The position numbers and the translations under genes were made by a program. Positions 26,008 through 41,585 of a stretch of 42,754 bases of DNA are shown piece after piece; positions within the stretch are counted from its first letter, which is position 1; each line of letters opens with the position of its first letter. The notes below the pieces were generated by a model. The model saw only the letters and a list, made by a program, of their open reading frames with translations. It did not search any database and was not told the origin of the DNA. The DNA is from an uncultured Acidobacteriaceae bacterium (GTDB lineage: Bacteria > Acidobacteriota > Terriglobia > Terriglobales > Acidobacteriaceae). The stretch covers positions 1 through 42,754 of the forward strand of contig CAXTUV010000001.1 of the NCBI GenBank assembly GCA_964247445.1, read 5' to 3'.

Positions 26008-26771
26008 CTACGCGGCTGTTTTGCAGGGCAGGTAAATGCGGATGGCCGTGCCGCTTCTACCCGGCTTGCGGCAGGTGCGGAGCCGGATCGTGCCCTGATG
26101 ATCCGTAATGATGCGCTTGGAAATCCAGAGCCCCAGGCCCGAGCCCTGCGGCTTGCCGATCGCGTGCGCCTCGAAGAGCCTGCTTTCCAAGTGCTCCGGG
26201 ATGCCGGGCCCATCGTCGGCGACAAGCAGGTGAATGCAGTCCGAGCACCGGCGAACCCGGATGTGGATGTGTGCCCCTTGCCGTGCTTCCGCCAAAGCCT
26301 CAGCCGCGTTTAGGACGAGGTTCGAAAGCACTTGGAGCAGCTCGCTGCCGACAGCCTCGCACACCGCCCGGGCCGGGCCGCGCCGGTGCAGCTCGATGCC
26401 GGCGGTTTGAAGGCGTCCGGCGTGCAGCTTGCCGACCGAGTCAACAAGCGCGGCCACATCGACCTGCGCGGCTGCCCGCTGCTCGCGGTGGAAGGCGAGC
26501 GAGGGCCGCGTGACCGCGGTCAGCACCGCGACCTGCTCTTGCAGCAGCCCGAGGTACTCGCGGGCGGGCGCGGTCAGCAATTCCTGCCCGATCAGGTAGG
26601 CAAGGTTGGTGACGGCCTCAAGCGGGTTATTTACCTCATGCATGACGGCCGCCGCATGACGGCCGCCGCATGGCGGTTGGCCGCCGAAAGCCTTTCGCAC
26701 TCTTGCACCGCTGCTTCTAGCTTGTGGACGCGCTCCTCCAGCAGCTCGTAGGTGGGCTTGTCCGCTTCCAT
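26008..26771 (-). pseudogene. Sensor-less HisKA-HATPase histidine kinase, frameshifted by a 14-bp tandem duplication
   Basis: ATG at 26771 with GAGG RBS gives MEADKPTYELLEERVHKLEAAVQECERLSAANRHAAAVM. The repeat CATGACGGCCGCCG x2 (26641-26668) shifts the frame before HEVNNPLEAVTNL...QVLSNLVLNA...DDGPGI...GSGLGLWIS. Confidence 0.85.
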
Positions 26772-26963: not shown

Positions 26964-27194
26964 ATGGCTGAGTTTCACGCGCAGCTGCTCACCATCGAAG
27001 GCATGGAACAGGATGGCGGGGTTCGCGGGGTCACGCACGCGCTCGGACTTGTGCCGGGCGTCCGCGTCGCCTCAGTTAGTCCGGGTGCAGCCAAGGTGCT
27101 TGCCGAGCCTGCCTGCGAAGGGCCGATCCGTGACGCGCTCGCCTCGGCCGGATTCGCGCTTGCCGCCGCCGAGCCCGAAGCTGTCCGGTCCTGA
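26964..27194 (+). CDS. HMA/CopZ-fold small protein lacking the CxxC motif
   Basis: LTIEGM-EQDGG-VRGVTHALGLVPGVRVASVSPGAAKV...IRDAL.SAGF follows the HMA pattern. GAGGAG RBS. Confidence 0.7.
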   Translation: MAEFHAQLLTIEGMEQDGGVRGVTHALGLVPGVRVASVSPGAAKVLAEPACEGPIRDALASAGFALAAAEPEAVRS

Positions 27195-27221
27195 ACAGGG
27201 CCGATACCCGTCTTGCTGCGT

Positions 27222-27617
27222 CTACTGCTTGGGCGGCACCACGGCCTCCTTAGCAGTCTTCGAGAGCCGGAACTTGACGGTCGTCTTGGCCGGGATCTGG
27301 ATCGGCTCACCCGTGGCCGGGTTGCGGCCTAAGCGGCCCGCCCGCTCGGCCCGGACCAGCTTGCCCAGGCCCGGCACCGTGAACTCGCCCGCTTCCCGGG
27401 TCTGCGCGGTTGCGGTTTCGGCCAGCAAATCCAGAAATACGCCGACCTGCTTGGGAGCTATTTCCATGCGCTCGGCGAGCAAGCGGATCAGCTGCCCCTT
27501 GGTCATCTTCGGCGCGGCCGGAGCTTGCTCAACCTTGGAAGCCCTGCCCGGAGCCGCCTTCTTTGCTCCGGCCTTCGTCGGAGCTGCCTCTTTTGCTGCC
27601 GTTTTCTTTGCTGCCAT
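27222..27617 (-). CDS. HU-family DNA-binding protein with Lys/Ala-rich N-terminal extension
   Basis: MTKGQLI, FTVPGLGKL, R.GRNPATGEPIQIPAK and VKFR. Preceded by AAKKTAAKEAAPTKAGAKKAAP. Confidence 0.92.
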   Translation of the reverse strand: MAAKKTAAKEAAPTKAGAKKAAPGRASKVEQAPAAPKMTKGQLIRLLAERMEIAPKQVGVFLDLLAETATAQTREAGEFTVPGLGKLVRAERAGRLGRNPATGEPIQIPAKTTVKFRLSKTAKEAVVPPKQ

Positions 27618-27740
27618 CCAATCCCCCGTTCTCCCGCCGCTGCTCTGTCCCTCATACGCCGTCGCGCGGCTAAGAACACTCAGCATAGCCGCCCGCATGC
27701 GTAGGCAGTCGGCTTGCCTTCGGCGCGGGAAGCCGCGCTC

Positions 27741-27932
27741 TTAATCAGGTCCGCAGCTGTGCTGCTGCAAGCTGCGGCTCAGCTCGTTGACCAGCACCGT
27801 GGCGGCAGCCCGCTCGGCGGCCAGCTGCCTGCGCGCCGCCGGGTCTGCCGCAGAGCGTCCGTACAGCCGTGCTTCGGCTTGCATGGCACGCGCACGCTCC
27901 TCGTTCAGGGCTCGGCACACCGGGCAGGGCAT
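27741..27932 (-). CDS. Small CxxC...HxC helical-hairpin hypothetical protein
   Basis: MPCPVC, a helical Ala/Arg-rich middle and QQHSC at the end. Confidence 0.55.
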   Translation of the reverse strand: MPCPVCRALNEERARAMQAEARLYGRSAADPAARRQLAAERAAATVLVNELSRSLQQHSCGPD

Positions 27933-27951
27933 GCCGCAGTGTAGCTTCCCG

Positions 27952-28227
27952 TCAGTGCGCCTGCCCGAGGGCGAAGCGAAGCATCCTGCCGACCGCCCAG
28001 AGCCGGGACGGCGGGGCTTGCGCCGGTTCTTCACGAACAGCTGCCCGGGCCAGCTCCGGCGCGGCACCCATCAAACCGGAGCGGGCCAGGGCCGCTTCGT
28101 CCCGGCAGACAGGCGACGGGCAGATCCCGTGACACAGCAAGGCCGCGGGCAGGCGCTCGTTGCAGGCCGCGCACGGCTGGAGGCGCGGGCCGAATCCCAA
28201 GCGGAAGCGCAGGGCTCGTGTGCTCAT
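27952..28227 (-). CDS. Small Cys-rich hypothetical protein
   Basis: CAAC...CHGICPSPVC; co-oriented with the neighbouring small ORF. Confidence 0.45.
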   Translation of the reverse strand: MSTRALRFRLGFGPRLQPCAACNERLPAALLCHGICPSPVCRDEAALARSGLMGAAPELARAAVREEPAQAPPSRLWAVGRMLRFALGQAH

Positions 28228-28325
28228 CAAAGCTACCTTGGCAAGCCCGCAGCTGGCCGTCAACGGTACCGAAGTACCCGGAACTGTTTCCATGCGCTCT
28301 CGGCGGCCCTAAGCTCAGGGGGGAG

Positions 28326-28754
28326 ATGGAAACAACAAGGGAAACCAATGCCCGGCGTCAGCGCGAGTTCCGCGCCCGCATCCGGGCCAGGATAGCGGCC
28401 GACCCAGCCCTCAAGCTCTGCCCGCATTGCGGCGGCCCGCATCCAGGCGGCGCGTCCCGCTCCTGCCCGGCCTGCCGTGAACGGGCGCGCACGGCTGCCA
28501 GGCGCAAAAGCGCGGCCGGGCTATGCCCGGACTGCGGACGGCCCAAAACGGACGGTACGAAGCTGTGCTGCGCCGCCTGCCGGGCCAAACGGACCCAAAC
28601 GACGGCAAGGGTGAAGGCTGCAAACAAGGCGGCCGGGCTGTGCGCATGCGGTAGATCTCTCGATCCCGGCTGCGCATCCGTGCGCTGCGCCTACTGCCGC
28701 GCCTACCACAAGCAGCGCAAGCAGAACCAAAACAGCAGGCAGTTGAAAGCTTGA
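28326..28754 (+). CDS. Basic protein with three tandem zinc-ribbon repeats
   Basis: KLCPHCG..CPAC, GLCPDCG..CCAAC and GLCACG..CAYC, separated by Arg/Lys-rich helices. GGGAG RBS. Confidence 0.7.
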   Translation: METTRETNARRQREFRARIRARIAADPALKLCPHCGGPHPGGASRSCPACRERARTAARRKSAAGLCPDCGRPKTDGTKLCCAACRAKRTQTTARVKAANKAAGLCACGRSLDPGCASVRCAYCRAYHKQRKQNQNSRQLKA

Positions 28755-29020
28755 TTTCGGGACGGCTTATGCGTGTCTCTGCCGCTGTTTTCTTAATGAG
28801 AACAAGCTGACCAGAAGCTCTCTCAAAAATGTTCGTTTTTGCAAGAGCTACCTTCACGGCGAGAATAGCGCCTGAATGCGGACCAAACCGGTGCGCCATC
28901 ACATCGACCAGTTCTCCGGCAACCCGTTGTTCATGGGACGGTTGAAGCCTCAAGCAAGCCCTTCTCCTGAGTCGGATAAGGGACAGAAGCCCTGCCTGGC
29001 TGTGCATCACGCTGTAATGG

Positions 29021-29413
29021 ATGGAAAGCCGTGTCGATCCAGGACAGGAACCGCTTTGGGCTGAAGTTGCGCAGGGCGAGCCGGATGAGCAGGCTCGGGA
29101 GCACTTCCTCGCCTTGTCCGCCCTTTACGACTGTTGGCGCACCACGGTTGAGGAACGGATGCGGCTTGCGGCGGCGCTTCAGGCCTGCCGTCTGCTCGAC
29201 CCCTGTTACCTCGGCAGCCCCGCGAGGCCACATCACCGGGCCGCCCGTGTGAAAAGGGAACTGACACGTATTGCGGCGGCGGTGGAGGCTCCCCATTGCG
29301 GGCTTCATGCCGGGAGCCGGGCCAAGCGCCGATGTTCGGTTTGCCGCGCCATGGTGCACCCGTCCGCCTGGCCGGAGCATGCCGAGCACTGCTTTCATGT
29401 GTGCACACCTTAA
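29021..29413 (+). CDS. Hypothetical protein with C-terminal Cys/His cluster
   Basis: Helical N-terminus, then CGLH...CSVC...HAEHCFHVC. Confidence 0.45.
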   Translation: MESRVDPGQEPLWAEVAQGEPDEQAREHFLALSALYDCWRTTVEERMRLAAALQACRLLDPCYLGSPARPHHRAARVKRELTRIAAAVEAPHCGLHAGSRAKRRCSVCRAMVHPSAWPEHAEHCFHVCTP

Positions 29414-29559
29414 GCCGCGAATCAGACAGACACAGGTCCTGCCCTGTTGGTTGAATCAATCTTGGGGGGTTGAACATGCACGTCCGGCAAGGCGGTGTAC
29501 AGGTTGCGCGGGCTGGAAAACAATGCGGCGAAGTCGCGGTCGCTTTTTCAAAAGCGAAC

Positions 29560-29751
29560 ATGATTAAAATACAAGTCACGCTGTTCCACGCGGAAGGAGC
29601 CTGCACACTTTTCGAGGGCCGGCCGGAGGAGTGCCCGCCGCTGCCGCGCCCGGGCGACCGCATCCTGCTCGCGGAGCATAGCGTGCAAGTGGAAGGGGTA
29701 CAGCACAGCTATCGCGAACCTGGCTTCGTGGAGGTTCAGCTGCTCGCTTAA
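29560..29751 (+). CDS. Small beta-rich hypothetical protein
   Basis: PLPRPGDRI...VQVEGVQHSY...VEVQL resembles a small beta-barrel pattern. Confidence 0.5.
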   Translation: MIKIQVTLFHAEGACTLFEGRPEECPPLPRPGDRILLAEHSVQVEGVQHSYREPGFVEVQLLA

Positions 29752-29776
29752 AAATAGTGATTTCTACAACGGAAAG

Positions 29777-30505
29777 CTAGCTCAAGACTTCCCGCGCATC
29801 GGGCAGAGCCCGGCTGTACAGCTCGGCATGGAGCTGCCGGGTGATTGGGTAGCAGTCGCAGGCTGCTGTTTCAAGGTCCTCCCGGCTCAGAATTCTCACG
29901 CGGCCCCGCTGGTACTCGATTAGCCCACTGCGCTGGAGCGTGCCCGCGACCACAGTCACCGTAGTGCGGCGCGCACCGAGCATTTCGGCCAGGAACTCCT
30001 GCGTCAGCGGCAGCACGTCCTCGCCCGTGCGGTCCGCCGCGGTCAGAAGCCAGCGCGCTAGCCGCTCCTCGGCTTCGTGCAGCCGGTTGCACCCCGCTGT
30101 CTGGCTGACGGCCAGCGTATGCTCCTGCACGAACTCGAGCAGGCGCGCCCGCACGTCCCCTCGCTCCTCAAAGGCTTGCTGGAGGTCCGCGAGGCGGATG
30201 CGGAGCGCGGCACCTTCAAGCTGCATGAAGCAGTCGGTGGACACGCGCGCCGGGCCGAGCAGGTGCACGGCTCCGACGACGCCCTCGCGTCCGATCAGCC
30301 CGACCTCAGCGATGCCGCCGTCGGGCATCGCGGTCACGACCGAGGCGATGCCCGAGGTTGGAAAGTAGGCATGGGTGAGCGGCTGCTGAGAGCGGTAAAG
30401 TATGGTGCGGACGGGCAGGGGTACGGCGGTAGAGCGTTCGGTGAGCCAGGCGCGGCTCTGGGGAGAAAGGGAAGACAAGAAGCGGTTTTCCTGCGGAGCG
30501 GGCAT
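29777..30505 (-). CDS. Crp/Fnr-family transcriptional regulator
   Basis: NRFLSSL, AYFPTSG, EVGLIGREG, CNRLH..EERLARWLL, LTQEFLAEMLGARRTTVT HTH and ACDCY. Confidence 0.93.
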   Translation of the reverse strand: MPAPQENRFLSSLSPQSRAWLTERSTAVPLPVRTILYRSQQPLTHAYFPTSGIASVVTAMPDGGIAEVGLIGREGVVGAVHLLGPARVSTDCFMQLEGAALRIRLADLQQAFEERGDVRARLLEFVQEHTLAVSQTAGCNRLHEAEERLARWLLTAADRTGEDVLPLTQEFLAEMLGARRTTVTVVAGTLQRSGLIEYQRGRVRILSREDLETAACDCYPITRQLHAELYSRALPDAREVLS

Positions 30506-30726
30506 GAGAGAGGTCCTTTGCTTCAGTTCGCAAAGGACCTCCGCTTGGGAAAAGCTCGGTGAAGGGTCGCGTCTCTGATCAGAGCGCCGGGGTTGTAAAC
30601 CCGCCGTAGTCACACCCTACCAACAGGCGGGCGCTTCTTGTGTACGGTATTGGGCAGAGCGGGCAAGTAAGCGCAAAATACCTTTTGAGAATCCGGGCTG
30701 GACCGCGCCCGTCAAATACCCGCACG

Positions 30727-31089
30727 ATGAAACCGCTTGTTCTCCAATACGGCCATGAAGCGCGCCTGCTCGACACTCGGGGCTGGGTGCTCGAAAGCGC
30801 GGGCTTCGCGGTGCGGAGCGCGGCCGACCGGGCGGAAGCGTGCCGGGTGCTCGCCGCCGAGCCGATCGCCGCCCTGATCCTCTGCCACACGCTTTCCTTC
30901 GCGGAGCGGGAGGAGATACTGGCCGCAGCGCACGCCCGCAAGCCTAGCCTCCGGAGTGTAATCCTCAATGCAAACGGCTCCGGGCACGCCGGCGACGGCT
31001 CGGACCTGGTGCTGCGCAACCTGGCCGGAGCCGGGGCACTGATCGGCGCGGTGCGCCAGGCGGCGCAGCAGGTCGTGCAGCCCGCCTAG
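30727..31089 (+). CDS. Atypical single-domain receiver (pseudo-response regulator)
   Basis: The REC (beta/alpha)5 pattern is recognisable (LL.TR..VLESAGFAV), but the acidic pair is replaced by YGH and the phospho-Asp position reads ILCHT. Confidence 0.7.
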   Translation: MKPLVLQYGHEARLLDTRGWVLESAGFAVRSAADRAEACRVLAAEPIAALILCHTLSFAEREEILAAAHARKPSLRSVILNANGSGHAGDGSDLVLRNLAGAGALIGAVRQAAQQVVQPA

Positions 31090-31303
31090 CTTTCGCGCCC
31101 CCACGTTTCCACCCGAGATTTCGGTAACGTGGAGCAGTCGGGGGTAAGCAGTCCGGTACATCCGCGCCCTCGGTCAAATGAAAGCAGCTCCGTCTCCAGC
31201 CGGAGCCGCGTCAGGAGCATCCCACGACATCGGGAAATCTTCTCCTGCTTGGAAGTGCCTTCCGGGCGTTCCTTTCAGGGCGGCGAAGCCGGAAAGGGCG
31301 TTC

Positions 31304-31525
31304 ATGGAGGAATTTACTAGCTCCGCGGAGCTGCGGGCGCAGCTCGCGGGCGCGCTGGAAGCGTTGCGCGGGGCCGCGACTCCGCTCGAAGCGCTCGGCT
31401 ACCTTGTTTACCTGACCGGCGAAAGTGCGGAAGAGCCCGAGGAAGTTCGCAAGTACATCGATCTTGCGGAAGAGCAGCTGGCAGTACTGCGCCGGATACT
31501 CGGCCCGGCTTTCAACCTTGCTTAA
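31304..31525 (+). CDS. Stand-alone HisKA/DHp-like helical hairpin lacking the phospho-His
   Basis: RGAATPLEALGYLVYL...VRKYIDLAEEQLAVL aligns with HEINNPLEAVTNLLYI...DHLELADRELARV of the local kinases. Confidence 0.65.
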   Translation: MEEFTSSAELRAQLAGALEALRGAATPLEALGYLVYLTGESAEEPEEVRKYIDLAEEQLAVLRRILGPAFNLA

Positions 31526-31718
31526 TTAGCTCATCCTGCCGATGGTCTTGGTTGCTGCTCCGCTGTCTGCAACGACCGAGTGTTGAAAACTCAGGGCTGA
31601 TCTTGGCGGGCCACATCCCGGAGGATGTTTTAGGTCAACGGCTTGCCGGGACAGGCAGGGTGGGCCTTCCAAGGAGAAGGGCCGCGGGCAAGGCAAGCGC
31701 CGGCTCCGCGCCGGACAT

Positions 31719-31964
31719 CTACTTCCCCTCCAGGTACGTTCCCTCTAGGTGCATTCCTTCCAGGAGCCGTTCGATTTGAGCGACGGTTCCCCGATGCAGG
31801 CGCTTGATCTTCTCCGTCAAGCGAGCCAACGCGAGTTCTTCCTCTTTCAAGAGCTGGCCCCACAGCGCACGGTTTTGCAGCCGCTCCCACATTTCGAGCT
31901 CTCCGGGGGAAAGATAGCGGGTCGGGTCGGCTTCGACATTTCCTTCACGATAGGGTGTCGCCAC
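31719..31964 (-). CDS. Small helical hypothetical protein
   Basis: GGAGG RBS with GTG start; amphipathic helical sequence. Confidence 0.5.
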   Translation of the reverse strand: MATPYREGNVEADPTRYLSPGELEMWERLQNRALWGQLLKEEELALARLTEKIKRLHRGTVAQIERLLEGMHLEGTYLEGK

Positions 31965-32129
31965 GATGGCCTCCTGCCCCACCACCCTACCCCATCCGGC
32001 ACGGAACATAAAAGGGGTTATGTGTAGTCGGCACCATCGTAATCTTGGCAGAAGCGAGCGTTTTGTTTATTTCGTTTTTAGTGTCCAACCTTGTATAGGG
32101 GTGTACTGGCATCCGCCTGGAGGTTTCCC

Positions 32130-32597
32130 TTGGCTACCGCGACGATCGATACGCTTTCCATCTCGAACGAGCACGAAGACCGGCAGCAGATCGAGGACCT
32201 GCATCGACTGCTGCAACGTGAAGGACGGGCTCGGCTAGTCGGACCTGGAAACGAACCCGCAATCGAACTGCCGGAAGCGGTATACGCGCTGTTGCTGAAG
32301 ATTCTCGACGATATACGGCACGGGAACGCCATTTCGCTTGTGCCGGTGACTCAGGACCTGACCACCCAAGAAGCAGCCGAGCTGCTCGGCGTTTCCCGCC
32401 CCTATTTCGTGAAGCTGCTCGAAGCCGGCGAACTGATGTTCCACTCTACCGGAACGCATCGCCGCGTGTACCTCAAAGATTTGCTGGCCTATAAGGAGCA
32501 GCGCGACCGTGGCCGCCGCAGCGCACTCGACCAGATGGCAGCTGAAGCCGATGCTGCCGGGCTTTACGATCAGGTGTTGCTGCCTTCTGAATCGTGA
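32130..32597 (+). CDS. Excisionase-family HTH DNA-binding protein (putative antitoxin)
   Basis: IELPE, LTTQEAAELLGVSRPYFVKLLEAGEL, GTHRRV.LKDLLAYK and GLY. GGAGG RBS with TTG start. Confidence 0.88.
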   Translation: MATATIDTLSISNEHEDRQQIEDLHRLLQREGRARLVGPGNEPAIELPEAVYALLLKILDDIRHGNAISLVPVTQDLTTQEAAELLGVSRPYFVKLLEAGELMFHSTGTHRRVYLKDLLAYKEQRDRGRRSALDQMAAEADAAGLYDQVLLPSES

Positions 32598-33160
32598 CCT
32601 CCGGCTACCAAGCGGTTCTCGACGCGTGTGTTCTCGTCAATGCGGCGCTCCGTGACACGCTGCTTCGTGTTGCGGAGCCACCGCGCCTTTATCTGCCTCG
32701 CTGGTCGGCTGCCATTATGGACGAGCTCACGAGAACGCTCGAAGGCAAGCTCGGCCTTTCTGAAGCGCAAACCGCGCATCTCGTCGGCCAGCTACGTGAG
32801 CACTTCGGGGATTGCTGGGTCGAAGGCTACGAGCCGCTTATCCCTGCGATGCGCAATCACCCGAAAGATCGCCACGTGCTCGCGGCTGCCGTGCGCACCG
32901 GCGCGCAAACCATCGTGATCTTCAACCTGCGCGATTTCAAGGCCGAAGCGCTTGCCCCTTGGGACGTAGAGGCGCAAAGCCCGGACCAGTTTCTGGTCCA
33001 TCAGTTCCATCTCAACCCGGCCGTGGTGTCAGCCAAGGTGCGCGAACAGGCCGAAGAGCGCGGCGGCCTGGAACGGCTGCTCGCAATTCATCAAAGAACG
33101 GTTCCCGGCTTTGCGGGATGGATCCGGCAGTACATCGAAAACGAAAGCGCTGAAAGATGA
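32594..33160 (+). CDS. PIN-domain (VapC-like) ribonuclease
   Basis: AVLDACVL, LRDTLL, PRWS..IMDE, HPKDRHVLAAAV, IV.FNLRDF and PDQFL. GTGA overlap with the upstream HTH gene. Confidence 0.9.
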   Translation: MTSGYQAVLDACVLVNAALRDTLLRVAEPPRLYLPRWSAAIMDELTRTLEGKLGLSEAQTAHLVGQLREHFGDCWVEGYEPLIPAMRNHPKDRHVLAAAVRTGAQTIVIFNLRDFKAEALAPWDVEAQSPDQFLVHQFHLNPAVVSAKVREQAEERGGLERLLAIHQRTVPGFAGWIRQYIENESAER

Positions 33161-33876
33161 GTTACTTCATTGCCGGTGTACTCATCCTGGGCCTCACCTT
33201 TCTTCTGCTTCGGAAAAGAGTCTCCGGCTCTGCATCGCCAAGGCGGCAGGCCTGGTCCGCGACTACTGTTCAGCAGGATGGCCGAAGTCCTCAAGCCGCG
33301 CACTCAGGTATCGCTCTTCCAGCAACAAGGGAAATGCTTGCCGAAGAGGAGTCCGCCATGCGGGAAACATTTGCTCTGCTCGAGAGCCGCATGAACGCCT
33401 CCGGAGTATTTGTGCCGGAAAAGATCTCCGTGCTCTTGAGTCTTCTGCGCACAGCTTCGCAACCCTTTTCTCGCGTCAACACGAGCGTCGCCTTCCAAGG
33501 CGACACCGTTTTGACCGTCGCTGAAAAGAAAGCTCTCAACTTGAACACACGGATGAGATACACCAGGGAATACCTCGCCTTCTTTCTTCCTGAAAGGCTA
33601 GCCGGCCTTGAGCCCAAGAGCTTACTGTCCGACATGCATCTGGCTGCTTTTCACGAAGTACGGAACAGAAGGGAGCTTGCAAAGCTCAAGCGTTCCGGCC
33701 TAATTCGGCGCGTGGGCATTCTTGCCTGCGACGACGGACGCGATTGCACCCAGGTCCGAAGCGTCCGGAGAACGTTTGCCCTCGATGAAGCGCCCGCCTT
33801 GCCGCTTCCTGGCTGCGATGCCCCGTATTGCCGGTGCCTTTATACGCCCATCGTGGACGCTGATCGCCGCAGATAA
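33157..33876 (+). CDS. Membrane-anchored hypothetical protein with C-terminal Cys motif
   Basis: N-terminal TM helix followed by RKR; C-terminal ACDDGRDC...PALPLPGCDAPYCRCLY. ATGA overlap with the PIN gene. Confidence 0.7.
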   Translation: MSYFIAGVLILGLTFLLLRKRVSGSASPRRQAWSATTVQQDGRSPQAAHSGIALPATREMLAEEESAMRETFALLESRMNASGVFVPEKISVLLSLLRTASQPFSRVNTSVAFQGDTVLTVAEKKALNLNTRMRYTREYLAFFLPERLAGLEPKSLLSDMHLAAFHEVRNRRELAKLKRSGLIRRVGILACDDGRDCTQVRSVRRTFALDEAPALPLPGCDAPYCRCLYTPIVDADRRR

Positions 33877-34072
33877 AGGACATTATCATGTGTAAAAGAG
33901 ATCAGGGCTTCGCCTTCCGAAGCGCGGCATCCGCTACTTGCCCGGCACTTTCCGGTCGTCGTGTGCGGCCGCTGGCTGTTTCAGCCTCTTTTCGCTGAAA
34001 TCAAAATATAAAAGAGGTCTATGTATTGCTCGGCAATACTTGGTTTATCAGGCAGAATCCGCCCGCTTGTTT

Positions 34073-34121
34073 CGTCGTCGCCGGATCGCCCGCCATGGTG
34101 TACAGGTACTCGGCCGTCACC
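34073..34121 (-). repeat. 49-bp copy of RHS core sequence (orphan rhs remnant)
   Basis: 46/49 identical to 35690-35738. Encodes VTAEYLYTMAGDPATT versus VTAEYLYTMAGELATT. Confidence 0.85.
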
Positions 34122-34136
34122 ACATAGATTAGGAGG

Positions 34137-34709
34137 CTAATCCGTTATCGCAAGAAATGTTCCTGGTAAAGTAAACTCTTCCAGCCCGAAGATAAGTTCT
34201 CCCGCGCGCGAGTTGTTTATGGCGACTTCAATTGAACAAGGGAACTCCGCGGTTGCGGATATTACAAGTCTTTGACTAAAATCCGGGCTGGAAAGACTTA
34301 TAGCTTTAGCTGATCTCAGCGCCCCTAGATCCCCATAACTGCTGCCTTCCGGATCGCGATATAAAAGTATTCTGCGTTTCGGCTTTAGCAAATCCGTCAG
34401 CCCTAATGCTTTTACAGTTTCAACGTAGTCGATTGCGCTCCATCTATCTGAACCGGTTTCGCGAGGTGGCCAAGCCGGTACACCTTGCTTGTCAAGCCAA
34501 TAGCCATCCGCCTCAAATGAATCCAGGTCGAGGTAGAAGGTTTCTTCGCCACTAACAAGATCAACCCCTTTAGCCACAATCTTGACATTTCCCTTGTCTG
34601 TTACAAAGGCCATGTCAGGGCAGAAGCTTTTACGCTTGAAGGGAAGCGCCGGAGCATGAATGATGTTGCTGAATGCCAGCCGATTGATGAGTGCTTCAGG
34701 ATCTTTCAT
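34137..34709 (-). CDS. Putative immunity protein for the RHS toxin
   Basis: TAATG stop/start overlap with the RHS gene and clearly lower GC than the RHS core. Confidence 0.7.
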   Translation of the reverse strand: MKDPEALINRLAFSNIIHAPALPFKRKSFCPDMAFVTDKGNVKIVAKGVDLVSGEETFYLDLDSFEADGYWLDKQGVPAWPPRETGSDRWSAIDYVETVKALGLTDLLKPKRRILLYRDPEGSSYGDLGALRSAKAISLSSPDFSQRLVISATAEFPCSIEVAINNSRAGELIFGLEEFTLPGTFLAITD

Positions 34710-37700
34710 TAAGGGTCCGATCTTGGAACATGGTTATTTGCATCCTGGTCGTTGAAGTGTACGGTTTCTCCGTTCGGCTTAGGCCCTCGATTAGGCAAGT
34801 CTACTCTTGCAGTTCCGTCTGGATATAAGCGGAGTCTGCTGCCGTCATCGGAGACCTGATGTCCAGTTTTTGGATCGGTCGCCACATTCTGTCCTGCTGT
34901 TTGGTCAGCAAACGTGTCTCTCGCCGCGTCATGACCTCCCGGCAAATCTGTGTTCGTCCTTGTTCCAGCCTCTCTCGGATTATTGCCCACGAGAGGGCGC
35001 GCCAGGGTGGGTTCTGTAGCTACTGGTGTATCCGCCTCGCTCTGCCCGTCGCCAGCGGTCAGAGCCTGCCCGACCGCGCTTGCGGCTGCGCCGATCCGCG
35101 ACGCATCCTCGTTGAGAACCTGGCCTAGGGTGGAAACGAAATCCCGAATATCCAGGGCGATCTGCCCAGCCTGCTGTTGCGTGATCTGCTGCTGCGGGAA
35201 AAAGAGCGGCAGCGGACCCAGCGGAGCCGGAACTGCCGCCTGATGCCCGTCCCGGTCCACGCGGCTGATGGGGTTGTTGCCCACGTAGCTGTACAGGTTC
35301 AGCGTTTGCGGGTCCATCAGGTCCGCGTATGGCACCGGCTCGGGGCTTTCGCTCCAATCCGGGCTCATGAACCGGCTCAGGACCGAGTCGAAATAGCGCG
35401 CGTCGAAGTAGTCGTTGTTGGTTTCCTGGTCGCGCAGCTTGTCGGTGAAGTGGGTTTCCGTGTAGTCGTAGCCCGGGTTGCAGACCTGCCCGTCGCCGAA
35501 GGGACCGCTCATGCAGCTCTCGACGTAGTTGCCCTGCGTGTCCCCGTTCGCCTCCAGTGTGCCCACTTGGTTCACCAGCCGGAACTCGGTCCGCACCCCG
35601 CCCGGGCCCGCTGCGCCGATCCAGTCGCCCCAGTGCGTGCCACCGTTGTCGCGCAGCACGGTTCGGACCAGGTTGCCCGACGCGTCCACCGTCGTCGCCA
35701 GCTCGCCCGCCATGGTGTACAGGTATTCGGCCGTCACCGCGCCCCCGGTCACCGTCGCCACGCGCCGGCCTTCCGGGTCGTATTTGTATGCCACCCCCTG
35801 GTCCGTCACCGCCGCAATCCGGTTTTCCGCGTCCCAGGTGTAGTTGTGCAGCCCGTCCGAAAGCATGTTGCCGGCCGAGTCATAGGCCGTGCCCGGATTT
35901 GACGCCCTATTCTGGACCGTCGGCATGTATGCCCACTGGTAATTCGTACCCAGCAGCACCATGTGCGCGGTCTGGTTGCCCCACGGGTCGTACTGGTAAT
36001 CCTCCGTGTAGGGCGGCAGGCTCGCGTGCATGACCCGGTTCAGCTTGTCATACATGTAGGTGATGCTGCCCTGGGCCGAGTCGTCCGTTTCCATCACATT
36101 GCCGGCCGCGTCGTAGTTCCAGTGGTCGGCCAGCACCGTGTAGCCGCTCAGGTTGATGGAGGTGCGGTCCGTCATGCGGTTGCGCTTGTCGTAGCCCGAC
36201 ACCTGCCCATACTGCTGGCCGAGCTCAACCGTGGAAACCTTGCCGAAGGGCGTGTAGTTGAGCGTCGAAAGGACGAACTGCGGATGCGCCGCGTCGGCCA
36301 CGTCGGATTGGGCGCTGAACAGCTGCGACGCCGGGTTGTAGCTGAACGTCAGGCCGCCGTAGTAGTAGCCGCCGGGCGATGCCGCGTTGCGGGCCGCGTC
36401 CAGACCTCGGTCGGCGAAGGCCACGTTGCCGCCCAGGTCGTAGGAGGCATGTAGGTCGTAGTGGTCCGTGCCGCAGGTCGAGGGCGTGCAGGTCGATTTC
36501 AGCGTCGTGCGGCCGAGCGGGTCATACCCGTACACCACGGTCGAGCTGCCGTTAGTCGCGTAGGATAGCCGTCCGATGAGGTTGGCCTGCTGCACGCCGG
36601 TCCACTTGGGCGAAGCCTGGTCGATGAAGTTCCAGCCCTGAATCGGGGTGTCGTAGGTGTAGGCGACGGCCGGCGTGCCGGACGGATCGTTTGCGTAGCT
36701 CTTGCCTGTGACCCGGTTCAGCTTGTCGTAGGTGTAAGTGGTCACCACGCCGCGCGCGTCGGTGCGGGTGCGGACGTTGCCGTTGCCGTCGTAGGTGTAG
36801 CCGATCGTACCCGCTTCCGGGTTGGTGGAGGAAGTCAGCCGCGAAAGCGCGTCGTAGCTGAAGCCGCGCTGCCGGTCGCAGGCCGCGCCGCTTGCCGCCG
36901 CGCCGCTTGCCGAAAGGCAGCTGCTTGTGTTGCTGCCGCTCAAGCTGCCGAGCTGGTCCGCCTTGCGCAGATTGTCGAACCCGTCATAGGCGTAGTCGGT
37001 TTCGCTCGCGAGCGCTCCCGAGGCCGCGTCCGGCTCAATGACCGTGGTCAGCCGCCCGAGCGAGTCCGTGGTGCGCTGGGTGTGGTTGTTGAGTTCGTCG
37101 TACGCGTCGGCGGTCGCCCCTTGGAACGCGGCATGGGTGGCGTTGCCGTCCGGGAATTGCGTGTTGGTAACGCGGTCCAGGGCGTCGTAGGTATACGCGG
37201 TCAGGTCGCTTGTGGGCGAGCCCCGGTAGGGGTTGCTCACGCTCGCCACCCGGCCCACACCGTCGTACTGCGTGTCCACCGCGGTCGCGCCGCCAGGGTC
37301 GCTTTGGAGAACGGTTTGGCTTTTGCGCCCCAGCCCGTCAAGCACGGTTTGGGTGACCAGTGGCCCCGGATTGCCGGAAGCGGACAGGAGCTTGGTCATG
37401 GTGACCGTATTCGGCGCGCCGTCCGCATAGGCGACCTGCGTTTGTCCGCCGTCGGCGTAGTTCGTCTGGGTCGTCCGGCCCAGCGCGTCGTAGCCGTAGG
37501 CGGTCGCCGCGCCGTTCGCGTCGGTTTCGGTCGCTTTCAAACCACTGCACGATTTGTAGGTGAAGGTGGTCGACGCGCCGTTCGGCATCGTTACCTTGGT
37601 CAGATAAGCGCCCGTATTCGTCGCGGGAGCGCACGCCTGGTCGGTCCACGCATCGGCGTAGGAAAGAGCCGTCGTGTTGCCGTTGCCGTCCGTGATGGAA

Positions 37701-39424
37701 GACGGGTAGCCGTTGGTGTACGGCCCGTAGCCGGTGTTCTGCGTCTGCCCGTCGCTGCCCGCGCGGCTGACGCTCGTTGTGTTGCCGGCTCCGTCATAGC
37801 CGTAGGTCGCCTTGACGCTCGCCCCGTACACTTTGTCGGTGGTCGTACGCGTGTCCACCCGGTCGAGCGTGTGCGGGTTCGCGAACGAGGACTCCGGCTT
37901 CCAGTTCGTGGCCGCGGCGCGGATCCACGCGCCCCCGAAATCGTAGGTGTCGGCTTCCGTTACGTTGTCCAGCGACACGGTTTGCGTCGACCCGCCTGTC
38001 TGGAGGGCGTAGCTTTCCCCATAGGCGTACTGGACGTAGCTGGACAACGGAGACGCCGCGTCGTTGTAAGTCGTCGTGACTTTTTGCGGGAAGCTCAGTT
38101 CCGTGAAGTGCGGTGCCGAAGTGTAATCGGTATGCGTGGTGCGCAGGGCCTTGCCGCTTGCATCCTTCAGCACGACATCGGTTTCAAGCGGCGATTGGCT
38201 CACCGTGCCGTTCACCGTGAAGGTGTGAACCATCTGCCGGCCGCTCGGGTCGGCGACCGTCATGGTCTGGTTGTAGGCCGAGGTTGTGTCCGCTCCGCCC
38301 GCGAAGTAGTTGGACACTGAAGGCGTGTAGGTGGTTTTGTCTTCCTGGGAGCACTGGCCGCTTGAAGACCGGCACTCGTACTTGTTGGCGACCTGGAACA
38401 TATCGGAGCTGCACTCGACGTACCCCATGTCAAGCGGCTCGTTATAGTCGTTCCATTCGTAGCGGGTGTATCCACCGGCGGGGTAGGTGATCTTGGTCAG
38501 GTGCTTCGCGGCGTCGAAAACCACTTGAAAGACGCGCGTGTGGCCGGCGGCGTCCGCAGCGGGCAAAGTCAGGGTCTGCGTGTAGGTTTGCGTGGTGGGT
38601 GCGATCGGAGGCGAGTTGCCGTCCGGGGATACCGTGGGCGTGTGATACGGAGAGGTCTCTGTGCCTCCGTTCCACCTGCACTCCGTATTGGGGAACGTCA
38701 TGGCGGTGGAGCTTGCCGGACCCGATGCGAGCCCGCTCAGCGTGATGACCCGCTGGTCGGCGGCGCTTGTCGAATTGGAATCGTTGTAGGCGATCGAATC
38801 GCCCGGTTGGCCGTCCGCTGTTTGCCCGAGGTGGAACGTGATCTGGCGGCCCAAGGTGTCGGTCAAGGTCGCCGTGGATACTCCCACTGTCGGGCTCACC
38901 TCGTTGACGCTTACCGTGTTGCCGTTCACATCCACCATGCGCATGGTGCGGCTGTCCCAGTTCGCCTCGACCTGATTGCCTGAACCGGTAGCTCCCGGCG
39001 GGATGTTGGCGTATATGTCCTTATAGGTCGTGAAGTGGTACTGCGTTCCGTTCTTCGCGTACACGACGATGTCGCTTGGGTTGTTCGTGTCCAGCTTGTA
39101 GAAGGAGCCGTCCGTCGCGTCGGAAACCTGGATGATGCCGTAGCCGCGGATTTTGTTCTGGCTGCAGGAAGACGAGTTCGTGAACGTGTGGGGCGTCCCG
39201 CTCCAGTCGCTGAAGGTCCAGTTGGTTACGCAAAACACATGGATATTCTCTTCGGGTCCCTCGGGACCGTTTTGAGGAATCGCACCCGTGTATTCGGTGC
39301 TGTTCCGCAAGCGGGGAAGATTTACGGCCACCAGGGGAGCGTTCGGGCCTGCGAAGACTTCGTTGTAGGCGAACGTATCGACCGGAACGGGATAGCCGTC
39401 GCCCGTGTTGACCGACCCTCCCAC
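34709..39424 (-). CDS. RHS/YD-repeat polymorphic toxin (5' end disrupted)
   Basis: Many YD repeats (YGYDALGR, YTYDALDR, YTYDGNGN). Core FTDKLRDQET.NDYFDARYF..RFMSPD..NLYSYVGNNPISRVDRDG, followed by a ~178-aa variable tip. Confidence 0.93.
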   Translation of the reverse strand: MGGSVNTGDGYPVPVDTFAYNEVFAGPNAPLVAVNLPRLRNSTEYTGAIPQNGPEGPEENIHVFCVTNWTFSDWSGTPHTFTNSSSCSQNKIRGYGIIQVSDATDGSFYKLDTNNPSDIVVYAKNGTQYHFTTYKDIYANIPPGATGSGNQVEANWDSRTMRMVDVNGNTVSVNEVSPTVGVSTATLTDTLGRQITFHLGQTADGQPGDSIAYNDSNSTSAADQRVITLSGLASGPASSTAMTFPNTECRWNGGTETSPYHTPTVSPDGNSPPIAPTTQTYTQTLTLPAADAAGHTRVFQVVFDAAKHLTKITYPAGGYTRYEWNDYNEPLDMGYVECSSDMFQVANKYECRSSSGQCSQEDKTTYTPSVSNYFAGGADTTSAYNQTMTVADPSGRQMVHTFTVNGTVSQSPLETDVVLKDASGKALRTTHTDYTSAPHFTELSFPQKVTTTYNDAASPLSSYVQYAYGESYALQTGGSTQTVSLDNVTEADTYDFGGAWIRAAATNWKPESSFANPHTLDRVDTRTTTDKVYGASVKATYGYDGAGNTTSVSRAGSDGQTQNTGYGPYTNGYPSSITDGNGNTTALSYADAWTDQACAPATNTGAYLTKVTMPNGASTTFTYKSCSGLKATETDANGAATAYGYDALGRTTQTNYADGGQTQVAYADGAPNTVTMTKLLSASGNPGPLVTQTVLDGLGRKSQTVLQSDPGGATAVDTQYDGVGRVASVSNPYRGSPTSDLTAYTYDALDRVTNTQFPDGNATHAAFQGATADAYDELNNHTQRTTDSLGRLTTVIEPDAASGALASETDYAYDGFDNLRKADQLGSLSGSNTSSCLSASGAAASGAACDRQRGFSYDALSRLTSSTNPEAGTIGYTYDGNGNVRTRTDARGVVTTYTYDKLNRVTGKSYANDPSGTPAVAYTYDTPIQGWNFIDQASPKWTGVQQANLIGRLSYATNGSSTVVYGYDPLGRTTLKSTCTPSTCGTDHYDLHASYDLGGNVAFADRGLDAARNAASPGGYYYGGLTFSYNPASQLFSAQSDVADAAHPQFVLSTLNYTPFGKVSTVELGQQYGQVSGYDKRNRMTDRTSINLSGYTVLADHWNYDAAGNVMETDDSAQGSITYMYDKLNRVMHASLPPYTEDYQYDPWGNQTAHMVLLGTNYQWAYMPTVQNRASNPGTAYDSAGNMLSDGLHNYTWDAENRIAAVTDQGVAYKYDPEGRRVATVTGGAVTAEYLYTMAGELATTVDASGNLVRTVLRDNGGTHWGDWIGAAGPGGVRTEFRLVNQVGTLEANGDTQGNYVESCMSGPFGDGQVCNPGYDYTETHFTDKLRDQETNNDYFDARYFDSVLSRFMSPDWSESPEPVPYADLMDPQTLNLYSYVGNNPISRVDRDGHQAAVPAPLGPLPLFFPQQQITQQQAGQIALDIRDFVSTLGQVLNEDASRIGAAASAVGQALTAGDGQSEADTPVATEPTLARPLVGNNPREAGTRTNTDLPGGHDAARDTFADQTAGQNVATDPKTGHQVSDDGSRLRLYPDGTARVDLPNRGPKPNGETVHFNDQDANNHVPRSDP

Positions 39425-39436
39425 GGATTTTTTTTT

Positions 39437-39645
39437 TTAATTGTGCAGGTAGTTGATGTAGTATTTGTTTATGTTCGGCAGCGTCCAGCCGCCGCGCTGC
39501 GGGATCTGGAGCAGAGGAATGAACAGGTGCAGCGCTCCGTTGGCCAGCGTCACCTGCTCGTTCGTGCCTTCCGTGGCGGCCTGCGGCAAAATCCCGATCG
39601 GTGAAATGGTGTTGGGACGGTTGTCCGGGACCACGGGATCGGGAA
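39437..39645 (-). pseudogene. Detached N-terminal segment of the RHS gene
   Basis: GILPQAATEGTNEQVTLANGALHLFIPLLQIPQRGG resembles RHS N-terminal 'V.L.NG.L...IPL...RG' segments. It is in frame with the RHS ORF, separated by one TAA. Confidence 0.65.
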
Positions 39646-41109
39646 CCCGAGCACCACCGGGTTGCCGTACTTGCGGTTCTCGGTCACAGCGGTGTGGAGC
39701 TGCGGGAGCTTGTTCAGGCTCGCCAGCTCGTCGAGCACGAACCAGACCGGCTTCGCCTGATTCCGGCAGGGCTCCATCATGCGCAGGATCAGCAAGTCGA
39801 GCCACGCCGAATGGAGCGGCAGTACCCGCTCCCGCGCCGACGGCCGCGAAGCGAGAAACACCCACCGGGTCCGCTGGAAGCGCCACTCGCCCGTGACGAA
39901 CTTCTGCCGTGTCCCGTCCTTCTCGGGCAGCAAATCGAGCGAGTCGGCGATCATGTTCAAGCTCGCCAGCACCCCGGCTCGCTGCGGCCCGGCCTTCGCG
40001 TCAAGGTACGCGGCCTGGGGCGTCCCTTGACGCCTCCCGTCGATCTCCTCCGGGTTCGCCATCCACCCCAGCAGCTCGGCGGCCGACGGCCGGCTCCTGA
40101 GCAATCGTGAGAGCACCCGGCGCGGCGCGTCCGTGAAAAAGCCATGCTCATGCTCGCGCTCCGGCAGCATCGCGGCGGCGATCGCCTCCGCGTTTTCAGG
40201 CTGGAACAGCTCCTCCCGGAGATCCCAGTACGGGCACCGCTCGTCAAGCGGATTGAGCAGCAGGTCGCCCCGCTCGGGCCGGTAGAACTCTTGGGTGAAC
40301 TCGCCCGCCGGGTCGTACACCACGGCCGCCTCGCCCCGGCGCTCGACCTCGGCGAGTATCTGCCGGATGGCGTTCGACTTGCCGCTTCCCGTGTCGCCCA
40401 TCAGCAAGATGTGGCTGGATTCCAGCTTGCGCGGAATGCAGAAATTCGCCCCCGGCAGCCCCCATTTGCCCCGCAACCGGAGCCGGATGTCGTCGCCTTT
40501 CCGGCCCCGATTCCATCTCCAAGCCGACACCAACTCCGGGCCCTTGGTCCTCCGGCCGTGCCGCTCTTCGCCTTTCGACCGCCGCCCGGCCGCGAGCGCG
40601 AGCAGCAGCACCGCTGCCAATCCGAAGGCAGGCGTGGCCAGCATCCGCGCTGGCCTTTCCCCGTCGAAGAAGTCCCTCTGGACCGCAGCCGCGTAAAGCG
40701 CCGGGCGCTCGGCTGCCTTCACGATTTCAAGCCCCGCCCAGCCCTCGGCCCGCGCCTCGGAGGACAACTCCAGCGGCAGCTCCGGCCGGCCGGGAGTCTC
40801 GGCTCGAACTACGTCCGGCTCGCGCGCGAGCTCGGGGCTGCGCCCCGGCGCGGTCTTGTACACCCACGTAACGGGAAAACTCCGATCCCGGCCCGCACCC
40901 TGGCTATGGGCCGCTGCCCGCTCCAACTCCCCGCTCATCGCCGCCGCCATGTAGGGGGCGATGTACTGCTTTTGCAGCGGGTTCAACGTGAGCATGAACC
41001 AGCCGGAGAACAAAAGCGCGAGCGCGAAGGGGAGGACAAAGAGCAGCGGCACGAGAAGCAAAAGCCATGGGAACCCGCTGCCCGGAAACCGCATCGGATG
41101 CGCCGTCAC
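39641..41109 (-). pseudogene. Type IV coupling protein (TrwB/TraD-like), 3'-truncated
   Basis: N-terminal TM helices, Walker A HILLMGDTGSGKS, VYDP..EF, LNPLDERCP.W and Walker B WFVLDELASL.KL. Similarity ends abruptly after ENRKYGNPVVLGF. Confidence 0.85.
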
Positions 41110-41510
41110 TTCGCCTCCGGACGCGCCGCCGCAAGCCCGTGAAGAATCTCCTCGGCCTTCCCGTGCTTCACCGCGTCGGCGTGCCGGGCGATCTTACGCA
41201 CGGTCTCCTCGGACAGGTCGGAAGCCGCCGCGATCAGGTTCTGGGTGAGCGAGCGCAGGGCCAAAAGCTCGGCCAGCAGCACCGGGTCGGGCGGCGGTTG
41301 CTTGCCCGGCGCGGGCCTTCTCAAATGCGCGAGCGCCGCGTCGCGCAGCCACTCGGCGCAGGTCTTGCCCGCGCCCTCGGCGGCTCGCTCGACGGCTTCC
41401 ATTTCTGGCTTCGGCAGCCGGGTCGCGATGGTTTTGCCGCGCGCGGACGGCTTCAGTTCCGGGGTTGCGGACGGAGCGAGAAGCGGGGCGGGAACGCGGG
41501 AAAGGCTCAT
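41106..41510 (-). CDS. Ribbon-helix-helix relaxosome accessory protein (TrwA/MobC-like)
   Basis: KTIATRL...E..AVERAA...GKTCAEWLRDAAL RHH and LLAELLALRSL..NL. Overlaps the T4CP start. Confidence 0.78.
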   Translation of the reverse strand: MSLSRVPAPLLAPSATPELKPSARGKTIATRLPKPEMEAVERAAEGAGKTCAEWLRDAALAHLRRPAPGKQPPPDPVLLAELLALRSLTQNLIAAASDLSEETVRKIARHADAVKHGKAEEILHGLAAARPEAK

Positions 41511-41585
41511 CGGATGCGGGGCTCTGCGTGAAGGGAAACGGTAAGGGAAATGCGCGCGGGCGGTCAACTTTCTGCGGTATACAAC

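What the first reader, a model, noticed from the sequence alone, without database searches (positions are those of the whole stretch)
31304..31525. 73-aa stand-alone DHp mimic with His replaced by Arg
RGAATPLEALGYLVYLTGESAEEPEEVRKYIDLAEEQLAVLRRIL aligns along both helices with HEINNPLEAVTNLLYIVRNSPELPQSSRDHLELADRELARVSHIT (kinase at 23866) and HEVNNPLEAVTNLAYLIGQE..AREYLGLLQEQVAVL (kinase at 26008). Arg occupies the phospho-His position. The ORF has its own ATG, stops right after helix 2, and no HATPase remnant follows. Inference: a dominant-negative kinase inhibitor or receiver decoy, analogous to a microprotein.
Basis: partly seen in the sequence, partly recalled or inferred. Interest (0 to 1): 0.72.

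Follow-up and report, generated by a model that had tools for sequence, protein, structure and literature searches.

The report
His-less kinase stub docking a pseudo-receiver
This 73-residue bacterial protein is a histidine kinase cut down to its two docking helices, without the phosphate-carrying histidine or the ATP-using domain, and it is predicted to bind the neighbouring receiver protein that also lacks its phosphate site, so the pair would likely signal by binding rather than by passing phosphate.

Summary
The ORF is real, and its similarity to a kinase dimerisation hairpin (DHp) holds. Its closest relatives are not the two window kinases (38%) but a sensorless ~250-aa kinase subfamily (up to 58%). 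In that subfamily 17 of 25 loci sit beside a Crp-like gene and/or an aspartate-less receiver, against 0 of 37 long kinases. The ORF fills the kinase slot of that module here. A 17-codon in-frame deletion, not a simple His-to-Arg change, most likely removed the histidine. No ATPase remnant follows. It looks selected: 20 of 21 conserved core positions are kept versus 1 of 10 around them, and 7 of 10 strain differences are silent. Other stand-alone, mostly His-less hairpins exist (one trio has dN/dS about 0.1). A dimer model docks on the adjacent pseudo-receiver (0.69, best control 0.01), but such complexes are textbook. Best reading: a non-catalytic docking protein that sequesters the pseudo-receiver (0.42). 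Rivals: relic, minimal phosphatase, dominant-negative subunit. Against: 0 of 30 receiver-first loci had such a stub, and no close orthologue was found. The scan noted similar His-less stubs on other DNA, with no sequence look-alike of this one.

The parts
31304..31525 (+). 73-aa His-less, ATPase-less DHp hairpin protein (the finding)
31304..31369 (+). codons 1-22: remnant of the N-terminal coiled coil of the sensorless kinase subfamily, ending in EALR; the 17-codon deletion junction lies at about its end
   Evidence: 20.2 bits at His-17 vs -13.7 at His register; net 51-nt gap against the DNA profile
31370..31381 (+). codons 23-26 (GAAT): degenerate rest of the H-box; acidic H+1 lost, Thr at H+4
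31382..31498 (+). codons 27-65: conserved DHp core (dimer core and receiver-docking face)
   Evidence: 20 of 21 conserved columns kept; predicted interface residues 25-40, 54, 58
31526..31551 (+). weak, out-of-frame DNA trace of the DHp-ATPase linker after the stop; no ATPase remnant beyond it
30727..31089 (+). 120-aa single-domain pseudo-receiver: Cys at the phospho-Asp position (ILCHTL), acidic pair and Lys also lost; predicted partner
29777..30505 (-). Crp-family regulator, divergent from the receiver; third member of the conserved module
26008..26771 (-). sensorless-type kinase 4.5 kb away, frameshifted by a tandem 14-nt duplication at 26645-26672 (context; not shown to be part of the module)

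Best explanation
The ORF is a sensorless histidine kinase reduced to its two-helix hairpin, with the histidine box and ATPase domain gone, that likely homodimerises and is predicted to bind the aspartate-less receiver encoded just upstream, so it would act by sequestering that receiver rather than by phosphotransfer. Shown by sequence analysis: its origin from the sensorless kinase subfamily, the 17-codon deletion, the missing ATPase domain, its position in the kinase slot of the Crp/pseudo-receiver/kinase module, and the selective retention of the core. Predicted: the hairpin fold and the docking on the receiver's first helix. Inferred only: in intact modules the pseudo-receiver cannot take phosphate and so acts as a binding regulator or competitor on the kinase's docking site. 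The stub would titrate it and so change the activity of related HE-x-N-N-P kinases or of the receiver's own target. Expression, binding and the output are untested.
For: Origin: 26 of the 37 hits in 1.84 billion representatives are whole or truncated kinases of the sensorless type and 7 are short DHp-only proteins. Residues 8-22 fit the kinases' N-terminal coil at His-17 (shuffle p 0.0006). Synteny: receiver and/or Crp gene within 1.4 kb of 17 of 25 sensorless kinases, 6 of 12 other short DHp genes and 0 of 37 long kinases; all 11 receivers beside sensorless kinases lie upstream on the same strand, as here. L060 is a second DHp-only gene in the same slot. Selection: 20 of 21 conserved core columns kept versus 1 of 10 in the H-box rest and tail. 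7 of 10 differences in other runs' contigs are silent, one of them TAA to TAG (p 0.005-0.014). An orthologous trio of another short clade has dN/dS 0.07-0.13 over 46 codons. Complex model: score 0.69, best of 3 controls 0.01; that mark was reached by 116 of 157 solved complexes and 2 of 215 mismatched pairs, counts that hold only roughly here; runs agree in at least 85% of contacts, partner pLDDT at least 82. The invariant or near-invariant residues of both families lie in that interface: E29, L34, L37 of the stub and L14, R18 of the receiver.
Against: Kinase-receiver complexes are solved, so the model may pass from memory; it shows likeness, not binding. Starting from the receiver, 0 of 30 new loci had a short DHp within about 1.5 kb and only 3 had a kinase, so the receiver usually stands without a DHp neighbour. 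6 of 12 short DHp genes have neither neighbour. No close orthologue outside near-identical strains: 1 protein (itself); only G030 had a short-frame match at E<0.01 among 60 relatives. The docking-face residues are also common in the long kinases, so they do not name the partner. The window's receiver lacks a proline that is nearly invariant in its family, and the kinase at 26008 is frameshifted, so this region may be decaying. Most strain differences come from contigs of depth 2-3 from one study. Core and tail boundaries were drawn after seeing the data.
Confidence: 0.42

Rival explanations
1. Relic: the ORF is the surviving open piece of a dead sensorless kinase and has no function.
For: It sits in the kinase slot and shows two lesions, a deletion and a stop followed by a frame-shifted linker trace. 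Truncated or frameshifted sensorless kinases are common among the hits (L066, L071) and one lies in this window. The module receiver was found in only 3 of 36 genus relatives with this query. No close orthologue.
Against: Decay is not uniform: 20 of 21 core columns kept versus 1 of 10 beside them (one-sided Fisher p about 5e-6, computed by hand, boundaries post hoc). 7 of 10 strain differences are silent, no indel falls in the ORF, and the two 1-nt deletions in the 1061-nt stretch fall outside it. A contig of a more diverged strain bridges the deletion junction without a gap (record 9). The core scores 85 bits on the kinase profile, the highest of 25 short proteins.
Confidence: 0.2
2. Minimal phosphatase or decoy for ordinary, phosphorylatable receivers of the genome's HE-x-N-N-P kinases: it docks them and helps remove, or blocks, their phosphate.
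For: It lost the His and the acidic H+1 residue but has Thr at H+4. In HisKA kinases H+1 is needed only for kinase activity and Thr/Asn at H+4 only for phosphatase activity (PMC3510030, abstract). The genome has four long kinases of this class.
Against: Thr or Asn stands at H+4 in only 10 of 25 short proteins. The adjacent receiver cannot be phosphorylated at the usual site. No canonical receiver was identified or modelled as partner. Isolated DHp domains are weak phosphatases without the ATPase domain (recalled, no call).
Confidence: 0.18
3. Dominant-negative subunit: it forms four-helix heterodimers with full-length kinases and blocks their autophosphorylation, like a microProtein.
For: The dimer-core residues and part of the N-terminal coil are kept. 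Kinase heterodimers that inhibit signalling are known (RetS-GacS; PMC12189002, passages). A kinase cut after its DHp changed signalling in a DHp-dependent, His-independent way (ChrS; PMC9491836, passages).
Against: No intact kinase of the parent subfamily was found in this 85%-complete genome, and the long kinases are only about 38% identical and form a separate branch (99/93 support; window kinases not in that tree). In the ChrS study the truncated form gave no significant two-hybrid heterodimer signal. The heterodimer was not modelled here.
Confidence: 0.15

Closest known systems
DivL-DivK of Caulobacter (PMC4211667; abstract, section headings and section 10 read)
   Same: A kinase-derived DHp without the phospho-His (Tyr550 there) that binds a single-domain receiver through the normal docking face.
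   Different: DivL is a large protein with PAS and ATPase-like domains and reads phosphorylated DivK. This one is a bare 73-aa hairpin, and its predicted partner has Cys in place of the phospho-Asp.
'HisKA, no HATPase' / possible incomplete histidine kinases (P2CS class; PMC5847659 section 7 read)
   Same: DHp without an ATPase domain, proposed to act in signalling.
   Different: Those carry N-terminal sensor domains and a conserved His. This has neither and scores no Pfam HisKA hit.
Aspartate-less receivers / pseudo-receivers, including 26 Cys-ALRs (PMC4395418 and PMC12632262, passages read)
   Same: The neighbour is such a receiver. Binding of pseudo-receivers to kinases as competitors is named there as a hypothesis.
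   Different: The passages seen describe no LCH[ST]L family beside Crp genes and sensorless kinases, and no His-less DHp partner. Their supplementary sequence tables were not seen and may list members.
ChrS pseudokinase of Corynebacterium glutamicum (PMC9491836, passages) and RetS-GacS-PA1611 (PMC12189002, passages)
   Same: Non-catalytic use of a DHp; regulation by binding and sequestration.
   Different: Those are membrane kinases, laboratory-evolved or full-length, not free-standing natural mini-proteins.
Spo0B / ChpT dimeric phosphotransferases (recalled)
   Same: DHp-type four-helix bundle that docks receivers without kinase activity.
   Different: They need the His. It is absent here and in 22 of 25 short proteins aligned.

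Membership tests
HisKA histidine kinase | H-box with phospho-accepting His and acidic H+1 | tested here: not met
   R-G-A-A-T-P in place of H-E-I-x-N-P
HisKA histidine kinase | HATPase_c domain | tested here: not met
   none in the ORF or six frames downstream
HisKA histidine kinase | DHp helical hairpin homologous to kinase DHp | tested here: met
   E 1.8e-10 to a kinase fragment in 1.84 billion; hairpin model; fold search gave no match at E<=0.001, only weak kinase rows
Spo0B/ChpT-type phosphotransferase | conserved phospho-accepting His | tested here: not met
   His at the site in 3 of 25 short proteins, none in this protein
DivL-type pseudokinase | His lost, receiver-docking face kept | tested here: met
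   (prediction only)
DivL-type pseudokinase | sensor and ATPase-like domains; binds a phosphorylated receiver | tested here: not met
   73 aa only; neighbour lacks the phospho-Asp
'HisKA, no HATPase' incomplete kinases | sensor domains plus DHp with conserved His, no ATPase | tested here: not met
   ATPase absent (met), but no sensor domain and no His
microProtein-type dominant-negative inhibitor | small protein made of only the dimerisation domain of a larger relative | tested here: met
microProtein-type dominant-negative inhibitor | heterodimerises with and inhibits the larger relative | not tested
Aspartate-less (pseudo-) receiver, for the neighbour 30727-31089 | receiver fold with the phospho-Asp replaced | tested here: met
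   profile matches solved receivers (best E 1.2e-6); Cys aligns with the phospho-Asp, YG with the acidic pair, Gly with the Lys; Atlas receiver clusters at 0.97-0.98

The most novel reading that the evidence does not exclude
Acidobacteria carry an undescribed Crp / pseudo-receiver / sensorless-kinase module in which the kinase has been pared down, probably more than once, to 55-100-aa His-less hairpins. These form a phosphate-free 'pseudo two-component' pair with Cys-His pseudo-receivers and act by partner switching: the stub soaks up the pseudo-receiver that otherwise gates kinases or the Crp regulator. This ORF would be a recent case whose making is still legible, with the start and coil kept, the His-box excised in frame, and the ATPase dropped.
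Probability: 0.3. Interest if true: 0.8.

Novelty: new variant of a known kind. Interest (0 to 1): 0.58.

Why it matters
If the binding is real, both halves of a two-component pair have lost their phosphate chemistry but kept the interface. That would give a minimal, soluble test system for a question the pseudo-receiver review calls open: how pseudo-receivers are controlled and whether they compete for kinase docking sites (PMC12632262, passages). It also flags a family of small proteins and a three-gene module that the Pfam and NCBIfam scans here did not recognise in this ORF, in a phylum abundant in soil (recalled). If it is a relic, the undescribed module remains of interest but this ORF does not.

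Tried and rejected
Word-index search at similar length found only the protein itself; at longer lengths nothing scored (weak evidence). ESM Atlas hits for the ORF were all under 0.9, so leads only. PDB sequence search with the family profile gave no real match; Foldseek gave none at E<=0.001. The genome-wide search with the 25-row short profile was swamped by full kinases and scored only 19 candidates per genome, so it is no census. The scan of genome contigs with the single protein returned one full-length sensorless kinase and covered 25 of 64 parts; the metagenome scan returned one locus. The tree of 87 rows by 44 columns cannot settle one versus several origins: the short proteins need 3 changes, but starred branches force only 1; the one-clade test could not be run. 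The profile comparison is circular (the query is in both alignments) and is not used. No RNA holder was listed. No sigma-70-like promoter was found in 30400-32100, and terminator-like sites were near the shuffle level. 'His replaced by Arg by point change' was considered. CAC to CGC is one change and 'ALE' fits both registers, so it is not excluded, but it needs three amino-acid changes in codons 20-22 against one for the deletion reading, and a 17-codon deletion is needed either way. The longer start at 31178 was rejected on homology, not on expression data.

Full report
Observation. The ORF at 31304-31525 (+) encodes 73 aa and ends in TAA. In a six-frame search of the own genome (51,040 segments) its best non-self hits are the DHp regions of the kinases at 26008 and 23866 (E 0.008 and 0.025; 38% identity each). 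It has no Pfam hit at E<=0.1 and no NCBIfam hit. AlphaFold2 on a 25-row alignment predicts two long helices, 7-40 and 45-71, mean pLDDT 90.3. Foldseek found no match at E<=0.001; several kinase DHp structures are among the weak rows. Atlas clusters of the neighbouring receiver are mostly Acidobacteriota and a 47%-identical kinase comes from a Granulicella MAG, so Acidobacteriota is an inference.

Nearest relatives. A full HMMER scan of 1.84 billion representatives gave 37 hits at E<=0.001. Read one by one these are the protein itself, 3 repetitive chance hits, 26 whole or truncated kinases of one subfamily and 7 short DHp-only proteins. The subfamily is a kinase of about 250 aa with no sensor domain: a short N-terminal coil, LALExMHEIxNPLEAL, and an intact ATPase domain. 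In a tree of the 44-column core the long sensor kinases form a separate branch (99/93); this protein and the other short ones fall outside it, with the sensorless kinases (few columns, many open forks; the window kinases were not in the tree).

How the His was lost. Residues 8-22 match the sensorless kinases' N-terminal coil with Arg22 at His-17 (20.2 bits), not at the His (-13.7 bits); 5000 shuffles, best register allowed, gave p 0.0006 (profile of 22 kinases; segment chosen after seeing the alignment). A DNA profile gives the same net 51-nt gap, although the first segment alone is weak (E 0.44). So 17 codons were deleted in frame. The breakpoint is ambiguous because 'ALE' fits both sides. 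Placing it after EALR costs one amino-acid change, against three for a His-to-Arg reading, so the His codon itself was most likely deleted. Only 1 of the 20 short proteins long enough to score shows this shifted coil (next best 0.4 bits), so this lesion seems particular to this gene. After the stop, weak similarity to the linker runs to 31551 out of frame; no ATPase remnant was found in 27001-34700 at protein level.

Genomic slot. Upstream lie a single-domain receiver (30727-31089, +) and a divergent Crp-family gene (29777-30505, -). The receiver family aligns to solved receivers with Cys at the phospho-Asp, YG at the acidic pair and Gly at the Lys, so it is a pseudo-receiver. All 11 receivers were upstream on the same strand and 11 of 12 loci with Crp had a divergent upstream copy, the order seen in the window. 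The ORF therefore occupies the kinase slot. L060 shows a second DHp-only gene, with Arg at the His site and its full coil, in the same order. The link is one-way: of 30 new loci found from the receiver (31 examined, one dropped because it built the profile; the own-genome locus and one unpublished locus left out), 13 had Crp, 1 a sensorless kinase, 2 a long kinase and none a short DHp at 12 bits or more.

A family of stubs. A profile of 9 short proteins found 30 proteins of 54-127 aa, 24 of them new, none with an ATPase domain; many are near-alleles. Genome searches added stand-alone copies, two of them in tandem in L059. In the 25 aligned proteins the His site holds Arg 8, Asp 5, His 3, Ala 3, Gln 2 and Glu, Lys, Asn, Leu once each. 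Arg is thus not a fixed feature. E29, L34, L37, V48 and Y51 are invariant or nearly so. One versus several origins is unresolved.

Selection. Of the columns conserved in at least 70% of 22 sensorless kinases, this protein keeps 20 of 21 in the core (His+5 to +43) but 1 of 10 in the rest of the H-box and the tail (Fisher p about 5e-6 by hand, boundaries post hoc; the Asn-to-Thr change at H+4 is counted as changed although functionally conservative). Contigs of four other runs show 10 differences in the ORF: 6 synonymous, TAA to TAG, and 3 conservative missense changes (p 0.005-0.014 for 7 or more silent). Seven of them are seen in both of two low-depth samples of one study, one in only one of those, one in a deep contig and one in a depth-2 contig. 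No indel falls in the ORF; two fall outside it. Three orthologues of another short clade give dN/dS 0.11, 0.07 and 0.13; that speaks for the family, not for this copy.

Predicted complex. Two copies of the stub plus the receiver scored 0.69, best of 3 controls 0.01. The mark was reached by 116 of 157 solved complexes and 2 of 215 mismatched pairs (counts hold only roughly here); runs agree in at least 85% of contacts and partner pLDDT is at least 82. The contacts join stub residues 25-40 to receiver residues 11-24 and 97-103, the usual kinase-receiver geometry (as in the DivL model, PMC4211667 section 10). Because like complexes are solved, this shows likeness and may come from memory; no specificity control against canonical receivers or kinases was run.

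Mechanism. I commit to a non-catalytic docking protein that sequesters the adjacent pseudo-receiver (0.42). Taken together a functional, phosphotransfer-free role has about 0.75.

Comparison and novelty. It works most like DivL but fails DivL, Spo0B/ChpT and 'HisKA, no HATPase' membership on tested features. Eight searches of the held library listed no description of this module or of natural His-less DHp mini-proteins paired with pseudo-receivers; subscription journals are mostly missing. Seen: PMC4211667 (abstract, headings, section 10), PMC5847659 (passages, section 7), PMC3510030 (abstract), passages of PMC9491836, PMC12189002, PMC4395418, PMC12632262 and bioRxiv 10.64898/2026.02.27.708494. 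No supplements were seen; the ALR and pseudo-receiver tables could list the receiver family. The scan's own notes hold no sequence look-alike of this protein but several unchecked reports of similar stubs in other genomes. Verdict: a new variant of a known kind (pseudokinase-type docking protein), interest 0.58.

Noticed in passing
window 26008-26771 (-): Sensorless-type kinase whose true start is near 26771; a tandem 14-nt duplication at 26645-26672 shifts the frame just before the H-box. One run's contig, possibly the source sample, has the same letters.
   Followed up: partly
L022-L040, L064-L071, L102: Conserved, apparently undescribed module: Crp-like gene, Cys-His pseudo-receiver, sensorless kinase with intact H-box and ATPase, sometimes a second Crp subtype downstream. 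The kinase's phospho-acceptor is unknown.
   Followed up: partly
window 28837-32023: In run X1 one contig carries this segment at about 99% identity but continues unlike the window on both sides, so the module occurs in another context or the flanks are insertions.
   Followed up: no
window 32091-41567: Excisionase-like HTH plus PIN pair, an RHS protein with a downstream opposite-end partner gene, a type IV coupling protein and a NikA/RHH gene: looks like an integrated mobile element; no tRNA gene in the window.
   Followed up: no
window 31719-32009 (-): Helical-looking ORF of 81-96 aa convergent with the finding; no Pfam hit and no homologue in the genome or fetched loci.
   Followed up: partly
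L059:3676-4163 (-): Two short His-less DHp genes in tandem.
   Followed up: no
L061, L092, L060: Short DHp genes lie near ferritin-like and four-helix proteins, dehydrogenases and Crp genes that resemble general-stress loci (labels recalled, not scanned).
   Followed up: no
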